Source: Candidatus Latescibacterota bacterium (lineage in GTDB: Bacteria; Latescibacterota; CBDEFO01). Taken from it: a stretch of DNA of 64,000 bases. Made by a program: the position numbers. Every line of letters starts with the position of its first letter. Positions within the stretch are counted from its first letter, which is position 1. Below, in pieces: positions 3,001-42,000 of this stretch. The stretch lies in NCBI GenBank assembly GCA_965248755.1, contig OZ252149.1, forward strand, positions 1,088,001-1,152,000, given 5' to 3'.

Positions 3001-6000
3001 TAAGCTTGAATGAATACTTGCTTGGGGAGACTTGGTGGACTTTGAGGAGGAAGAACAAATTTTAGCTTGACTTCTCAGAGGGAAATCTCTATCTTTTTCC
3101 CCATACGAAAAGCTAGATGAAATCCGGCAACATACCTTTTCCACTGCCCACACAGTTCCAAAATCGTTTAGAAAACCCTCGAAAAACGCATAAATTTATA
3201 CGAAATAGTAGAAACGACTCTTGTCCGCGATTGAACCTATCGGGGATTGCTGAGTTTACGTTGCCTAACATACTTAAAATAGATTTCTTACACATGGAAA
3301 TTCTCACGGCTCAACGGTTTGAAAGGGTTGTCTCAAAACTGTGCCCAAAATTAAGAGCTTTCGGTGGAGGTCCTGACGTCGGTGGCATAGAGGCCAAGGA
3401 TTCAATCCCGCACATCTAACTCCTTTCCTGAAGCCTATTGAGATGCTGCCCTCAAACATCTCTCCTGCCACAGGGTGGATCCCATTCAAGCACAGAAGTC
3501 CAACTATAGTCTGGCTAAGTAGCCAAGCCAGATGACGCCGCAACCCTGCCCGAGCGGTGGCTCCGCCGCGTAAGAAAGGCAGAGGACACATCAGCCATCA
3601 ACGAGATGTTGGCCGCGGATGCCCTATGATCCAGGAGGTCAGCTCATTCCGCTCCGTAAAGCGTGCTCTTATGTCGTCAAATTAAAACCCATTCCAGTGG
3701 AGGCACCCCTGATGAGTTCCATAAATAATGTCGAGCGGTTCCGTAAGAGACTCGACGAAAACAAGATCTGCGTCGGCACGTCGGTGCAACTGTGTGATCC
3801 ATTAGTAAGCGAGCTGGCTGCGGAGGCCGGCAACGACTTTCTCTGGATCGAGATGGAACACTCCCACATGGGCCTTGCGGACGCGATGGGACACATCATG
3901 GCCTGTCGAGGTACGCAAACGGCGCCGCTTGTGCGGGTCTCCCATCCCGATCGTAATCTGATCAAGCCGTTCCTGGACCTGGCGCCGGCGGGAATCATCG
4001 TTTCCATGCTCGAGTCAGCCGACCAGACGTCGGAGATGGTTAAGGCATGCAAGTATCCACCGCAGGGCAACCGGGGATTTGGGCCGATCCGCAACATGTA
4101 CGGCAAGAACTCCATGGCAGAACACCTGGAGACGGCCGACGAACAGATCATGGTCTTCGCACACATCGAGACGATTCAAGCCGTGCGAGATCTGGATGCG
4201 ATCACGCGTATACCGGGGCTCGACGGGCTCAGCCTTGGCCGCAACGACCTCTCCGGGACGCTGAACAAGCTCGGCCAGCACACCGACCCTGAAGTTCTCG
4301 AAGCAATTGACACCGTCATCACGAAAGGAGTTGAGGCTGGACTGCATGTCGGCTGCTCGATCGGGACCGATCTAGATCAAGTCAGGGAGTGGCGCGCAAA
4401 GGGCATGAAGTGGTTCGCGCTGGGCGAAGAAGTCGGCCACATCTTTGACGGTGCCAAAACCATTGCAGACGAGGTACATGCAATGCAGTAGGTGATCGTC
4501 TTCCCACATGGTCGACGCAAACCAGAGCGAACGCTTAACGATCGGCTGGGTGCCTTGACCAGACGGGAATTTGGCAAGGACACAAAAGGCTGAAAAATGC
4601 ACTTGTCTTGACGTCACTGCTGCTCTGCGCCGCAATATATCAGGTCCGAGAGAGCCTCTTGGGTTACTAGCGGCTTCCCCGATAGGTTCAATCGGGAAGG
4701 ACTTCTCGAAGGGTGCTTTTGACGCGGCGGGTGCGAACTTCTATGTGTCTTGCGGTGAGCGCGCTCAGATGATACGCACGTGGGACGTCAATAACGACGA
4801 GAATATCGATCTGTATTTCGGTAACTCGCACGATCTGATAGAATACGAGCCATCACGGGTCTATCTTCAGCCAGATGGTAAGCCAAGTCCTGACGCAAGA
4901 TTAATGTTGCCCACGCGGCATTCATCTTCACAGTGCGTAAGCGACTTGGATGGTGAGGGTTATACAGACGTTATCATACTCAATTATATGTGGGTGCCCG
5001 ATCCTGTGGTTAGGGTTTCATCTACTGGGGTGGACCTGAAGGTCTGAGCCCTAAGTATCGGACTTCTATTCCGACGTTCTCTGCCCTGTAGGCGTCAGCG
5101 CTCGGGATGATGGTGGCTGCTTTCAACCACGACGGCTGGCCCGATCTTTCATTTTGCAATTTTTAAGCATGATCCTGGCGGTAACCATCGGACACTTTAC
5201 ATTGCCGCGAACAATCGTATGGTGCTGATCGCCACCGTTGACAAGCCCCACCAGTAGGTGACGGCTCACCTGGAGGGACGGCGATTGGCGCTACGACGAG
5301 GTGCTCGCCACCGGGGTATGCGCGGGATCCCAGAATACAGGAGACTGACATGGAATCACAGATGGAGGCGCCGGGTACAAGGACAATTGCTCCAACCGTC
5401 CGACCAGTTACGGCCCGGAATATTGTAAACATTGTGCTGGAAGGCTGGAACGTCTGGTCTTCACGTTTTGTTTCCGCGCCCACGTGGACGTGGGGCGCCA
5501 TTCCGGACGCTGCGGGCTATGTTGTGAAGCTGGCGATCGGGAAACAGAAGGCGAAGGATTACAAGGTTGATCAGCCGCAGTTTGATATGTCAGATATCTG
5601 GGATCAACTGCCGATCGGCCCGATCGACGCGATGATCCTGGGCGTCGGAGCTGACGGCGCGGAAGTGTGCAATTCTCAGACGAAGAGTTTCTATAAGGTG
5701 CAGGGCTACGATGGTCGCAGGGCCGAGCCGTTGGATTGGGTTGCGGCCGTGCGGTGTAACATGGAGTATTTGCTGGCACCGCCGCGGGATCGTGTAGAGG
5801 ATTTCGAAAAAGGTTTACCGCGAGGCATCTGGTCGTGTATGGAGGACAGTGTGACGGGGCAGCGCTGGTCAAGCGTGGCGTGTCCCTGCCTGAACGGCGC
5901 TGGACACATCAGGTCGTTTCTGACTTTCTGTGCATATTTCCCCGATGATGAGATGGCAAGCGAAGCCAGACGTCAGGCGAAAGTGTTTGGTGATTGGTTC

Positions 6001-39000: not shown

Positions 39001-42000
39001 TGACGCTGCGAGTCTACAAGCGTTACAGCGATCAATACGAGACACTCAAGGAAACAGTGCCGTTCTCAGAGCTGGAGCGCCAGCCGATCATCCTCCGGCC
39101 CAAGTAGGGTCAAAATACTACGCATTACCGTTGGAGTAAGGATTTTTTAGAAGCAGGTAAGAAACGCTTGCGTGGAGATACAGTAAGAGCAGCCAATGCA
39201 TCAGGCGTCAAACATATTCGCCAGGAGAACGCTCATTTAAAGCAATTGGTAGCTGATCTGTCATTGAAGAATGATGTATTAAAAAAAAGCTTGAATGGTT
39301 TGGAATCAGACAGGGCAGACAGAGGTCTCGGTTCTTTATTTGCCTGCCAGCAATTAAATATAGTACAACTCAGTAAATAAAAATTTAGGGCGTCAAAAAT
39401 GAACATAGATTTATTAATGGTGGTCTTATACTTTGTTGTAATATTCATAATTGGAATATATAAAAGCGCTGTCCAAAAAAAGGATGCGATCAACTATTTC
39501 CTCAGCGGTAGAAAACTGCGTTGGCCCTCCATAGCAATGTCTACGATTGCCACGAATATTCAAGCGGGACATTTTGTCGGTATGGGAGGCGCTGCATATG
39601 CTTACGGATTAGCTCAGGCAAATTTTGAAATTGGCGCCATTTTCGGCATACTTTTAGCCGCATTCTTTTTTGTCCCGCTCTATTTAAAGTTAAAAGTATT
39701 TACACTGACACAATTTTTTGAAGACCGCTTTGGTCCTTTTCTGGCTACTTGCTATTCGGTTTTTTCCATCATCCTTTTTGGTGTTATCTATCTTGGTGGT
39801 GCGCTCTATTGGGGCAGTTTCGCCATTAATGGGATTTTTGGTGATCAATTGAGCATACTCCATCCGGATCCTATAATCAGGCTCTACATCCTTGTGGTCC
39901 TTATGGGTTTATTTTCTGCTGTCTATGTTTATTTTGGTGGGCTTGCGGCTGTAGTGCGAACCGATGTGATCCAGATGGTTACGTTGTTGGGGGGCTCCAC
40001 CATCATCCTGGTGTTGGCGATAAAAGCACTTGGTGGTGTGTCTGAACTCTATAACCCTGATCTTTATGATGGCATTAAGACAGGTAAGGATCATCTGATG
40101 CATTTGTTTTTATCTTCAGATCATGAGAAAATTCCATGGACAGCGGTATTTTTCGGGATGTTATTAATGCACATTCAATATTGGGGAGCAAACCAGGTTA
40201 TCCTGCAGAGATCTCTGGCAGCACGTTCGGTAAGGGATGCTCAATTGGGATTAGTTGTAGGTGGCTTTTTGAAATACTTTGTGGCAGCGCTCATTATTAT
40301 TCCACCCATTGCCCTGGTTGGTTTTCATGAACGGTTGGAGGACCCCGATCAGGCCTACATTGTGTTAGTGAACACCCTATTGGCTCCGGGAGTTCGCGGC
40401 TTCGTTCTAATGGGACTTTTTGCTTCTCTTATGAGCACGGTCGATTCCATAATTAATTCGGTGAGTACGCTCTATTCTTTTGATATTTACAAGAGACGAA
40501 TTAATAAAGATGCGACGGACAAACAATTGATCCGGATCGGGAAGAATACCATTGGGGTATCAACCCTTGTTGGAATTCTGTTTGCATTTTCACTCATTTA
40601 CATAAAGTATCACGGGCTTGATTTTCCGCTTTCCCATCTGACGAATGAGATTTCATATCACATCAAAGCCGGTTTTACCATATTAATTCTGGCAGCAGTA
40701 TTTTGTACTGGAGCACCCAAGAATCTTGTGGCAACTGTTTTCGTGGCAAGTGCCGTTGTTTCACTTGCGTTTAAATATCTCATCTTTCCTGATATGAACT
40801 ACCTGAACCGAACCGGATGGGTGATTGTCTTGTGTTATGGTATTATTGCCGGAATATCGTATTTCTTACCAGGACAAAAGATCAAATGGGGAGAACTGAT
40901 TATTGTTGATACCCGGACTGTCGGTTACTTTGGCATGATTCTTGCCGTAATTTTGATTGGACTAAACATTATTTTCAGGTAATCGGTCGATACACAATTT
41001 CTTTCATAATTTAACTTGGGACGTAGCGAAGTACCCACCCCGGAGCCTTAACAGGTGTAGGTAGAGCAGGAGCGAAGAAACGTATTGAAAGCAAGCAGGT
41101 ATCACTGATCCCAAGACTTAGAACTGAATGACCCTGCGAGAACGTCCAATTCCTATTGACATCCACTGTCTTATTTTGTATCTTCCCACCAAATTGATCT
41201 ACCTCTTTGTATCTTGTCTCCTGATTGATCGACACTAACATACCCCCCCTTGACAGAGCGACATATATTTTGCAAATTGGGGTTTGAGGCTTGTCCCCGA
41301 GTGATGCTGTCGGGGAAAGGATGTCAAAGTGTCAAGCCCCAAGGTGGAAGATGGTAAGCGCTGGACGGCGAACCGTAGGGCGGAGGTGGTGTTGGCTCTT
41401 TTGAGAGGAGCGGATGTATCTGAAGTGTGTCGGAAGAATGGAATTAGCCAGTCAGAGGTGTATGCTTGGCGTGATAGTATCTTAGAGGGTGGGCAGGAGC
41501 GTTTAAAGTCTCGGCGTGGTCGCAAGGATCCGAGGGAGCGGGAGGTTGGTCCCCGATAGAATCAATCGGGGATTGGAGCGAAAGGTAGGAGCTCAGTACG
41601 AGGAGATGGGATTCGGGGATACAAAAAGGCAGCGGCTGTTATAGTTACAGATAACACAAGGTAAAGCTACAATATTAGGCACCTTTATATGTTGCGAACA
41701 GTCAATTATTGTTGCATATTAAGGTTTGCGAATATGCAGCTAATGCAGGTGTACCAAATTTTGGAGATTATCGGACGGTCGCTATCGTTGTCAACTTGGA
41801 CATGCGTCCATCACAACAACGCTGGATCGCTATGGTCATCTGATGCCGGAGGTTCACAGGCAGGCAGCGGAACAACTGTATGATCAGTTGTCTGGCGGGT
41901 TTGGTAGACTTATATTAGAAAATGAGCAGAAAAACGAAGAAAGGAGTTACAGTGATTTTTGTAACTCCTAGTTTTTATTGGTGGAGCTGAGGGGGATCGA

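What a model noticed while it worked through the whole genome (the two positions that open the first line are those of the whole stretch)
3712..41000. A 4.5-Mb catabolic specialist with no LacI, GntR, AraC, IclR, MarR, PadR, LuxR or OmpR regulator
Hundreds of sugar-acid catabolic genes (for example this 37-kb block) have no sugar-responsive regulator: eight major families are absent genome-wide, with one LysR and one TetR. Regulation rests on 17+ sigma factors, sigma54 activators and 15 cNMP-binding proteins, only 2 of them with a CRP helix-turn-helix.
Evidence so far: Pfam counts. Six-frame searches, own and sister: OmpR 0 (17 of 20 high-quality phylum genomes have it; call 42), GntR 0, LacI 0, AraC 0, IclR 0; MarR and PadR only sub-cutoff hits here; LuxR-type only three borderline hits on sigma-r4-like proteins.
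(Added by a program. Inside this text positions count along the whole contig: contig position 1,088,001 is position 1 of the stretch shown here. "Call 12" and the like, gene names such as g00115 and contig names such as C1 are that model's own, and its searches are not shown. The text may have been shortened before it was handed on; [...] marks where a part breaks off. The agent that wrote the report below was given it as the finding of a first reader that could run no searches.)

Follow-up and report, generated by a model that had tools for sequence, protein, structure and literature searches.

The report
Big catabolic genome, few regulators
This 4.5-Mb bacterium carries well over a hundred sugar-breakdown genes but only about 44 recognisable transcription factors, none of a sugar-sensing type, so it probably keeps these genes switched on from strong default promoters, a habit it shares in milder form with much of its phylum.

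Summary
The absences hold: no OmpR, GntR, LacI, AraC, LuxR, MarR, IclR or PadR over cut-off in G000, nor RpiR, DeoR, ROK-repressor, CdaR, LsrR or BglG (16, 42, 43, 69). I count about 44 sequence-specific regulators (~1.2% of genes; published bacterial mean 4.2%). But the phylum is regulator-poor: 13 of 24 other high-quality genomes hold 7 or fewer members of these eight families; G003 (3.1 Mb) has 2, with 21 enolase-family matches against 6 here, 3 sigma-70s and no cNMP domain. OmpR loss tracks loss of the Pst phosphate transporter. The proposed replacement by sigma factors, sigma-54 and cNMP proteins is not supported: ECF numbers are ordinary, the six RpoD-like paralogs keep the same DNA-reading residues, and predicted sigma-54 and CRP sites are few and mostly outside catabolism. 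Instead one near-consensus promoter (TTGAC-W-N17-TATNTT) heads 64% of divergent leaders and 16 of 17 catabolic ones, with no operator excess; the block's first 29 kb has one. Best reading: constitutive, hard-wired catabolism, as in oligotrophs, but in a large paralog-rich genome. Expression is untested.

The parts
3067..3095 (+). Predicted housekeeping-sigma promoter (TTGACT, 17 nt, TATCTT), the only strong intergenic one ahead of or within 3,712-32,604; about 615 nt upstream of the first start codon
   Evidence: PWM score 23.0, rank 35 of 604; consensus scan; no listed substitution in either hexamer in related strains while the spacer and downstream bases vary (partial table)
2837..2865 (-). 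Divergent promoter of the same type for the dinB-like gene (1,520-2,710, -)
   Evidence: (score 22.6)
3712..4491 (+). HpcH/HpaI aldolase, first gene of the block (ATG at 3,712 behind GGAGG)
4571..5047 (+). FG-GAP repeat fragment
   Evidence: sub-cut-off
5350..6981 (+). 543-aa protein with a weak pectate-lyase-2 match
   Evidence: E 1e-5, sub-cut-off
7251..9690 (+). BNR/sialidase-like gene (7,251-8,315) followed by a split BNR gene (8,319-9,053 and 9,028-9,690); not regulators
   Evidence: a contig of run X4 replaces 8,327-9,571 by 137 letters
9770..14163 (+). DegT-type aminotransferase, GFO/IDH/MocA dehydrogenase, carbon-nitrogen hydrolase fragment, cytochrome P450
14176..26222 (+). FG-GAP protein, BNR protein and four tandem BNR + CarboxypepD_reg paralogs
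26774..32604 (+). Sodium:solute symporter, GH127-like protein, GH32 glycosidase
32785..33159 (+). Tyrosine-integrase-like remnant, not a regulator
   Evidence: feature score 0.92, Phage_integrase clusters; a lead, shared features 138-146 of 256
33412..33440 (+). Second predicted promoter of the same type, heading 33,569-40,982
   Evidence: score 20.1
33569..40982 (+). M19 dipeptidase, DUF6503, CLC channel, BNR + CarboxypepD_reg, sodium:solute symporter
60716..61576 (-). cNMP-binding + receiver protein without DNA-binding domain, in a pilus/secretin locus; an example of where the cNMP domains sit

Best explanation
The catabolic genes are hard-wired: long same-strand gene runs are transcribed from one activator-independent, near-consensus housekeeping promoter (cTTGAC-W-N17-TATNTT), with no substrate-specific repressor or activator; flux is left to transporter affinity and enzyme kinetics. 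The ~44 regulators that remain serve metal, Fe-S, SOS, heat-shock, nucleotide, envelope and motility control or sit on mobile DNA. This is the tail of a phylum-wide scarcity (seven of the eight families are patchy or rare in relatives); the one genus-level loss, OmpR, mostly reflects loss of the PhoB-type regulator together with the Pst transporter. Shown: the absences, the census, the promoter motif, phylum background. Inferred: that the motif is the working promoter, that expression is constitutive, the role of kinetics, and a stable host-associated or oligotrophic niche as the cause.
For: Absences and phylum counts. Random sample of 150 unscanned small cytosolic ORFs: 0 sequence-specific regulators at E<=1e-7. 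Promoter PWM >12 in 64% of 276 divergent leaders vs 0.7% of shuffles and 3.3% of 240 convergent controls; 16 of 17 catabolic-cluster genes at divergent leaders; 123 of 158 catabolic genes vs 2,304 of 2,953 others lie in units with such a promoter, median score 19.1 vs 18.9. Palindromes at catabolic promoters at chance level (27 of 78 vs 22.7 expected; perfect 1 vs 1.0) while other promoters show 11 perfect vs 5.7 and the LexA-type box is found at lexA. No second bipartite motif among leaders lacking the main one, only hairpin repeats. Catabolic genes within two genes of a regulator: 4 of 158 vs 196 of 2,953. PstB absent in G000/G001, present in 25 of 41; G003's only OmpR lies 5 kb from pstB; G000 has PhoU beside a Na+/Pi cotransporter. 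G003, G007, G027 have 21, 29, 29 enolase-family matches with 2, 4, 4 members of the eight families.
Against: A strong consensus promoter is also what repressed operons have, so promoter strength does not show constitutivity. 51 of the 150 sampled small ORFs had no Pfam family at E<=1e-7 and only 150 of 1,075 were sampled, so an unknown fold is not excluded. A TGTGA-N6-TCACA palindrome sits at the end of the -10 box in 7 promoters, so some repressor-type control exists. Direct-repeat or degenerate operators would escape the palindrome test. 3,027-3,077, upstream of the block's promoter, shows no listed change in related strains and could be a binding site (partial table, not tested for significance). 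Six RpoD-like paralogs are kept. The palindrome test is weak: the LexA box did not rank in the de novo dyad list.
Confidence: 0.62

Rival explanations
1. One reading: sigma factors, sigma-54 activators and cNMP-binding proteins have taken over control of catabolism.
For: 18 sigma70_r2, 9 sigma-54 activators, 16 cNMP matches, 4 class III cyclases. Five or six short RpoD-like paralogs, against 1-3 in most families. CRP-type sites 24 vs 8.0 shuffled, sigma-54-type 17 vs 4.2, of 1,404 regions. 36% of divergent leaders lack the main promoter.
Against: G003 has a larger enolase expansion with none of these expansions. About 8 intact plus 3 copies of one divergent ECF is near the published average of ~10 (PMC7826278, abstract opening in the listing). 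The six paralogs keep the region 2.4 (YxVWWxRQ) and 4.2 (RERxRQI) residues of the phylum's primary sigma. The targets of sigma-54 and CRP-type sites that I identified are groES, CHRD, SLT, ankyrin, amidase, BNR, subtilase, an ECF, rpoN and unknown proteins. Most cNMP proteins have no DNA-binding domain.
Confidence: 0.13
2. Substrate-sensing regulators exist but have a fold or sequence that Pfam and my profiles miss.
For: 51 of 150 sampled small ORFs have no family at E<=1e-7; several paralog clusters have no family; G000's sigma paralogs are on long branches, so its proteins may diverge fast.
Against: Profiles from the phylum's own OmpR, GntR, LacI, AraC, LuxR and MarR domains find only CRP, sigma region 4 and unrelated proteins; permissive HTH_24 and TrmB searches at E<=0.5 gave 22 and 13 hits, of which the distinct ORFs of 60 aa or more were scanned; ordinary regulators (Fur, NrdR, ArgR, LexA, HrcA) are found without trouble; the block holds no unexplained ORF of 100 aa or more on its coding strand; no operator excess.
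Confidence: 0.12
3. Control is post-transcriptional or post-translational (RNA leaders, hairpin repeats shaping mRNA decay, CsrA, phosphorylation, cNMP/c-di-GMP binding to enzymes and transporters).
For: 283 copies of one hairpin core genome-wide; CsrA, a PTS EIIA, cyclases and stand-alone cNMP domains are present; the block has a ~615-nt leader; SAR11 is thought to work this way (PMC13198564, passages).
Against: No Rfam match in the window but a tRNA; the leader folds no better than shuffles (z +1.25) and varies in related strains; no Hfq hit; no copy of the hairpin core in the block's gaps of 60 nt or more, one at 4,678. Compatible with the best explanation as an added layer, not a substitute.
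Confidence: 0.1
4. Artefact of assembly or recent decay: regulators are missing from the assembly or were just lost in an IS-ridden genome.
For: 236 near-identical multi-copy genes (231 kb), most of them transposon-like; broken genes in the block; a LysR and a DtxR fragment.
Against: One contig, 98.1% complete; G001 gives the same zeros; searches read through stops and found no remnants of the eight families; scarcity is phylum-wide.
Confidence: 0.03

Closest known systems
Reduced transcriptional regulation in marine oligotrophs (SAR11, SAR86, SAR92, Prochlorococcus; PMC13198564, passages read, citing Noell et al. 2023)
   Same: Few transcription factors; constitutive expression proposed; kinetic and post-transcriptional control proposed instead.
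   Different: Those are streamlined genomes, and SAR11 has two sigma factors and keeps PhoB and OmpR. G000 is 4.5 Mb, paralog- and IS-rich, has ~19 sigma factors and has no OmpR-type regulator.
SAR202 group I catabolic paralog expansions (PMC10444878, passages read)
   Same: Expanded SDR, aldo-keto reductase, enolase/mandelate racemase, Zn-ADH, HpcH aldolase and DHDPS sets proposed to oxidise sugars and sugar acids; G000 has 42, 18, 13, 11, 12 and 15. Mapping the paper's COG numbers to these names is recalled.
   Different: Different phylum; G000's enolase set is small (80 in SAR202 JH545; 21-45 in several relatives of G000). 'regulat' occurs twice and 'transcription' not at all in that paper; the passages shown do not address regulators.
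Quadratic scaling of transcription-factor number with gene number (PMC2995046 and PMC2704942, passages)
   Same: Depletion of regulators is known for intracellular parasites and endosymbionts.
   Different: Average bacterial content is 4.2%, 131 per genome, sigma factors excluded; G000 has about 44 in ~3,500-3,900 genes, without genome reduction. Their counting method differs from mine.
Bacteroidota polysaccharide-utilisation loci (recalled)
   Same: Clustered glycosidase and transporter genes; short primary sigma without region 1.1; T9SS-type proteins.
   Different: No hybrid AraC two-component regulators, no ECF enrichment beside catabolic genes, and the promoter is TTGAC/TATNTT, not the recalled TAnnTTTG type (122 vs 97.8 shuffled). 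SusR was not searched.
Multiple group 1/2 sigma factors of cyanobacteria and Streptomyces (recalled)
   Same: Several RpoD-like paralogs that keep the primary sigma's DNA-reading residues.
   Different: Here all are ~281-301 aa and lack region 1.1; roles unknown; the expansion also occurs in G002 (6) and family f7 (6-9).

Membership tests
Regulation-reduced oligotroph strategy | Low number of transcription factors for its gene number | tested here: met
   About 44 found; 0 of 150 more in a random sample
Regulation-reduced oligotroph strategy | Streamlined small genome with few paralogs and few sigma factors | tested here: not met
   4.54 Mb, large paralog clusters, 236 near-identical multi-copy genes, 18 sigma70_r2 matches plus sigma-54
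Regulation-reduced oligotroph strategy | Constitutive expression across nutrient conditions | not testable with these tools
   Needs transcriptomes or proteomes under different substrates
SAR202-type sugar-acid paralog expansion | Joint expansion of SDR, AKR, enolase, Zn-ADH, HpcH, DHDPS (and lactonase) paralogs | tested here: met
   Six of the seven sets counted by clustering plus Pfam of one member each; the lactonase set was not counted
SAR202-type sugar-acid paralog expansion | Enolase-family share near 2.8% of genes | tested here: not met
   13 in the cluster, 6 at E<=1e-25 of ~3,900 ORFs
Bacteroidota-type PUL regulation | Dedicated regulator (hybrid AraC two-component, ECF/anti-sigma, SusR, LacI, GntR) beside the catabolic cluster | tested here: not met
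   None in the block; AraC, LacI, GntR absent; sigma genes within two genes of 2 of 158 catabolic genes. SusR family not searched genome-wide
Sigma-54/bEBP-controlled catabolism | -24/-12 sites ahead of catabolic operons | tested here: not met
   17 sites in 1,404 regions, one before an HpcH gene; none in the block's leader or gaps at two mismatches
CRP/GlxR-type global catabolite control | CRP protein, cyclase and widespread TGTGA-N6-TCACA sites at catabolic promoters | tested here: inconclusive
   Two CRPs and four cyclases present; only 24 sites vs 8.0 expected, 7 overlapping the -10 end, targets mostly unknown or surface proteins
Pho regulon (PhoBR-PstSCAB-PhoU) | PhoB (OmpR-type) and PstB | tested here: not met
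   (49 of 64 PstB candidates scored); PhoU is paired with a Na+/Pi cotransporter

The most novel reading that the evidence does not exclude
Several lineages of this phylum run multi-megabase, paralog-rich catabolic networks with no substrate-responsive transcriptional control at all, a standing exception to the rule that each added pathway brings a regulator, and tune output only globally, for instance by exchanging RpoD-like sigma paralogs that read the same promoter.
Probability: 0.25. Interest if true: 0.8.

Novelty: new variant of a known kind. Interest (0 to 1): 0.52.

Why it matters
Regulator number normally grows with the square of gene number, and regulator-poor bacteria are usually small parasites or streamlined plankton. 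A large, catabolically versatile genome at about a third of the usual regulator content, with no OmpR-type protein, separates 'few regulators' from 'small genome'. It predicts flat expression across substrates, which metatranscriptomes can test, implies that many dilute substrates are taken up in parallel, and bears on how to cultivate the group. The defined promoter consensus gives a genome-wide map of transcription units for an uncultured phylum.

Tried and rejected
No RNA holder listed for window 9,770-18,452, so expression could not be examined. Runs with small word shares were not used for habitat. Footprinting against G001: too close (94-96%), and the 160 kb fetched did not hold the block. 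Rfam on the window: only a tRNA. Leader 3,100-3,720: no unusual structure. A Bacteroidota-type -7 promoter (recalled pattern): not enriched. FNR-type sites: 15 vs 11.8. A second promoter class for the sigma paralogs: not found. Candidates rejected as regulators after Pfam: the AsnC-like protein at contig 2,749,992 is a NirDL siroheme decarboxylase; the ROK protein is 321 aa, kinase-sized; LacI-like weak hits are CpsB, FG-GAP and EIIA proteins; the 53-copy 390-aa family is an insertion element. Literature: ten searches listed no paper on regulator scarcity in this phylum; term searches in three phylum or sister-phylum papers (PMC12993501, PMC4454575, PMC7081726) show no regulator census. The library lacks most subscription journals and I read no supplements, where annotation tables could hold such counts. 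PMC3726781 was not read. Not searched by family model: SusR, SorC (only E. coli LsrR as seed), PucR (only CdaR), Rex, BlaI, ModE, BirA, RHH/AbrB.
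Full report
Setting. The window is G000:C1:1,088,001-1,152,000 of a single-contig genome of 4,540,735 bases, 48.9% G+C, 98.1% complete. 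Earlier notes of this scan call it a Latescibacterota bacterium; I did not test that name, but the short primary sigma factor and T9SS-type proteins fit. The 7 public runs that hold a third or more of the sampled words of window 9,770-18,452 are filed under coded organism names rather than as metagenomes, and the genome has ankyrin, NHL, TPR and 23 PhyH paralogs; a host-associated life is an inference.

The absences. Each family was searched in six frames in the same 41 genomes (G000, its sister G001, 39 others of the phylum). OmpR-type: 0 in G000 and G001, present in 35 of 41 and 23 of 26 high-quality genomes. GntR: none over cut-off here, 24 of 41 have one. LacI: 0 here, 19 of 41, never more than 3. 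AraC: 0, 22 of 41. LuxR: 0 at E<=1e-5, 23 of 41. MarR_2: 0 at E<=1e-5, 28 of 41, many of them weak cross-hits. IclR: 0, with one strong hit in all 41. PadR: 25.5 bits here and 27.3 in G001 against a cut-off of 27, in a protein whose best NCBIfam match is SufR. I added RpiR (0 of 5 genomes), DeoR C-terminal domain (0 of 5 over cut-off), ROK (one 321-aa protein), and single-sequence searches with E. coli CdaR, LsrR, BglG and Hfq (no credible hit). Profiles built from the relatives' own domains found only CRPs, sigma region 4 and unrelated proteins. The three borderline LuxR-like hits are copies of one divergent ECF sigma factor.

The census. Pfam and NCBIfam on 126 + 30 + 40 candidates and E. 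coli seeds give 44 sequence-specific regulators, sigma factors excluded: 9 sigma-54 activators, Fis, 4 REC-XRE (three alike in length and score), REC-LytTR, HTH17-REC, 2 CRP, LysR, TetR, HrcA, LexA, 2 DtxR, NikR, 2 SufR-like, 2 small winged-helix proteins, Fur, 3 Rrf2, MerR, NrdR, ArgR, 7 XRE and an excisionase-like protein (list; MerR and NrdR rest on the E. coli seeds alone). My gene caller gave 3,949 ORFs, 450 of them under 100 aa, so about 1.2%. A published survey gives 4.2% and 131 per genome as bacterial averages (PMC2995046, passages); methods differ. I did not scan the whole proteome. Of 1,075 unscanned cytosolic ORFs of 70-300 aa, 552 lay in fetched tiles outside the ribosomal cluster; a random 150 of those gave no sequence-specific regulator at E<=1e-7 (two HU/IHF proteins, a HicB antitoxin, an alkyltransferase), and 51 had no family. 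That puts a rough upper bound of about 20 on missed recognisable regulators in that size class; unknown folds are not bounded.

The phylum background. Counting by hand the listed matches at E<=1e-10 for the eight families in the 24 other high-quality genomes, totals run from 2 to 20 (median 6.5); 13 have 7 or fewer; none has zero. G003 (3.1 Mb, 99%) has 2, G007 (5.0 Mb, one contig) 4, G027 (5.7 Mb, one contig) 4. G003 and G007 also lack TetR, G003 and G004 LysR. Enolase-family matches at E<=1e-25: G000 6, G001 8, G003 21, G007 29, G027 29, G012 40, G022 45 (29 genomes searched). So catabolic expansion with almost no such regulators is a trait of several lineages, stronger in some relatives on the catabolic side; G000/G001 are unique among those searched only in reaching zero. 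Kin are not independent and G001 is about 94-96% identical to G000.

OmpR. Relatives have 1-5 copies. In G003 the only one lies 5 kb from pstB, and OmpR and pstB share a contig in G005, G008, G019, G021 and G037; in three of four fetched loci one lies beside glutamine synthetase. PstB is absent from G000 and G001 (25 of 41 have it; 49 of 64 candidates scored here), and G000 has PhoU beside a Na+/Pi cotransporter. Loss of one or two genes with their regulon is enough to explain the zero. Some genomes without PstB keep OmpR (G004, G006, G014), so the link is not strict.

The block. 3,712-40,982 is a + strand run of 25 ORFs: HpcH aldolase, seven BNR/sialidase-like genes and a split one, DegT aminotransferase, GFO dehydrogenase, P450, FG-GAP proteins, two sodium symporters, GH127-like and GH32 enzymes, a dipeptidase, a CLC channel, an integrase-like remnant. 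No regulator is in it. G+C is 0.54-0.58 over 4-32 kb against 0.49 for the genome. It is a glycan-processing block more than a sugar-acid block. Genome-wide, nine sugar-acid-type clusters hold 158 genes (SDR 42, GFO 29, AKR 18, DHDPS 15, enolase 13, 2-hydroxyacid dehydrogenase 12, HpcH 12, Zn-ADH 11, Ldh_2 6; named from one member each), largely the set described for SAR202 (PMC10444878, passages).

Promoters. Upstream regions yield one dominant motif, cTTGAC(A/T), 17 nt, TAT(a/c/t)TT: the seed pattern occurs in 213 of 1,404 regions against 15.0 in shuffles. With the trained matrix, 64% of 276 divergent leaders score over 12, against 0.7% of shuffles, 3.3% of 240 convergent controls and 10.6% of 1,128 tandem gaps; 16 of 17 catabolic-cluster genes at divergent leaders have it. 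The matrix was trained on these regions, so the leader figures lean upward; the controls do not. 604 unique intergenic sites have a gene within 450 nt. Units holding catabolic genes have the same median score as others (19.1 vs 18.9) and are longer (median 5 vs 2 genes). In the block there is one site at 3,067-3,095 (score 23.0) and the next intergenic one at 33,412-33,440; none of the 13 gaps of 60 nt or more between 4,491 and 32,785 scores over 8.7, and a 13.1 site at 27,336 lies inside a gene. In contigs of three other runs the listed differences around the first promoter fall in the spacer (3,078, 3,082) and at 15 places in 3,100-3,178, none in the hexamers; only 40 of 952 rows were shown. 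Operators: de novo dyads near promoters are the hairpin repeat, back-to-back -35 boxes and TGTGA-N6-TCACA, the last starting at the end of the -10 box in 7 promoters, a repressor position. Inverted repeats at 78 catabolic promoters are at chance level. Sigma-54-type sites: 17 vs 4.2 expected, with identified targets such as groES, CHRD, SLT and ankyrin proteins, an ECF and rpoN, and one HpcH gene.

Sigma factors. Six are short RpoD-like proteins (281-301 aa, no region 1.1), one is FliA-like, eight are ECFs, plus broken or divergent copies and sigma-54. Region-1.2 matches number 5 here, 6 in G002, 6-9 in family f7 and 0-3 elsewhere. All six keep the region 2.4 and 4.2 residues of the phylum's primary sigma, so they should read the same promoter (inference from established sigma-70 structure), and no second promoter class was found. 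In a 21-row tree G000's paralogs are on long branches (0.45-1.19; two recent duplicates share a 1.33 stem) while most primary sigmas of relatives are under 0.25 (only one sigma per relative was included).

Verdict. The best-supported mechanism is default-on transcription of long units from a consensus promoter, with control, if any, left to kinetics and global signals. This works like the reduced regulation of oligotrophs (PMC13198564, passages) but fails that group's small-genome criterion. Ten literature searches and three phylum-related papers searched by term showed no account of it. Constitutive expression remains inferred.

Noticed in passing
G000 contig, about 53 copies, e.g. C1:729,302-730,567; L164:8938-10158: A 1,266-bp insertion element with 4-bp target duplications, imperfect terminal repeats and a 389-aa ORF (99.7% identical copies) that matches no Pfam family at 1e-4, no NCBIfam model at 1e-3 and no PDB sequence at E 1: possibly an unclassified IS family.
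   Followed up: partly
G000 C1:649,915; 693,697; 1,520,980; 1,700,618; 2,664,148; 3,989,497: Six short RpoD-like sigma paralogs on long branches; similar expansions in G002 and family f7.
   Followed up: partly
G000 C1:3,130,647; 4,154,639; 4,240,263; 3,745,814; 3,758,728; 3,123,702; 572,431: Small regulon with a TGTGA-N6-TCACA palindrome fixed at the end of the -10 box; three targets belong to one five-member family without Pfam match, one is a CHRD/Ig protein. Likely repression by one of the two CRP-like proteins.
   Followed up: partly
G000 C1:1,314,716; 1,793,291; 2,194,381; 3,749,170: Four REC-XRE response regulators, at least two beside HDOD-kinase-receiver hybrids of identical length and score, apparently a repeated module.
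   Followed up: no
G000 C1:225,093 and 19 more; 2,989,397-2,994,300 and others; 2,121,525-2,134,400: Paralog families with no clear family: 20 x ~515 aa (weak GHL10), 13 x ~317 aa, 5 x ~770 aa; candidates for new glycan enzymes.
   Followed up: partly
window 50,500-60,623 (-): Big_1/Invasin_D3 repeat protein interrupted by a DDE transposase (57,710-59,107), upstream of a secretin and downstream of a pilus ATPase and a cNMP-REC gene.
   Followed up: no
G000 C1:3,706,650-3,706,860: The lexA promoter carries a GAAC-N4-GTTC box between -35 and -10, the type I recall from Gram-positive bacteria; only 2 exact sites among 604 promoters.
   Followed up: partly
G003 (3.1 Mb, 99% complete): An even leaner regulatory set than G000 (3 sigma70_r2, 5 REC, 0 cNMP, 0 TetR, 0 LysR) with 21 enolase-family matches; the better test case for the scaling-law exception.
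   Followed up: partly
G000 genome-wide; 71 matches to ATTGC-N19-CAAT: A second family of short dispersed hairpins besides the CCCGAT core.
   Followed up: no
G000 C1:2,258,687-2,260,429 (-): Unusual fusion: receiver + HARE-HTH + Mrr-type nuclease-like + DnaX_C-like domains.
   Followed up: no
window 41,982-42,054 (-) and 32,785-33,159 (+): A tRNA-Ala gene and an integrase-like remnant flank the low-G+C end of the block, hinting at old acquisition.
   Followed up: no
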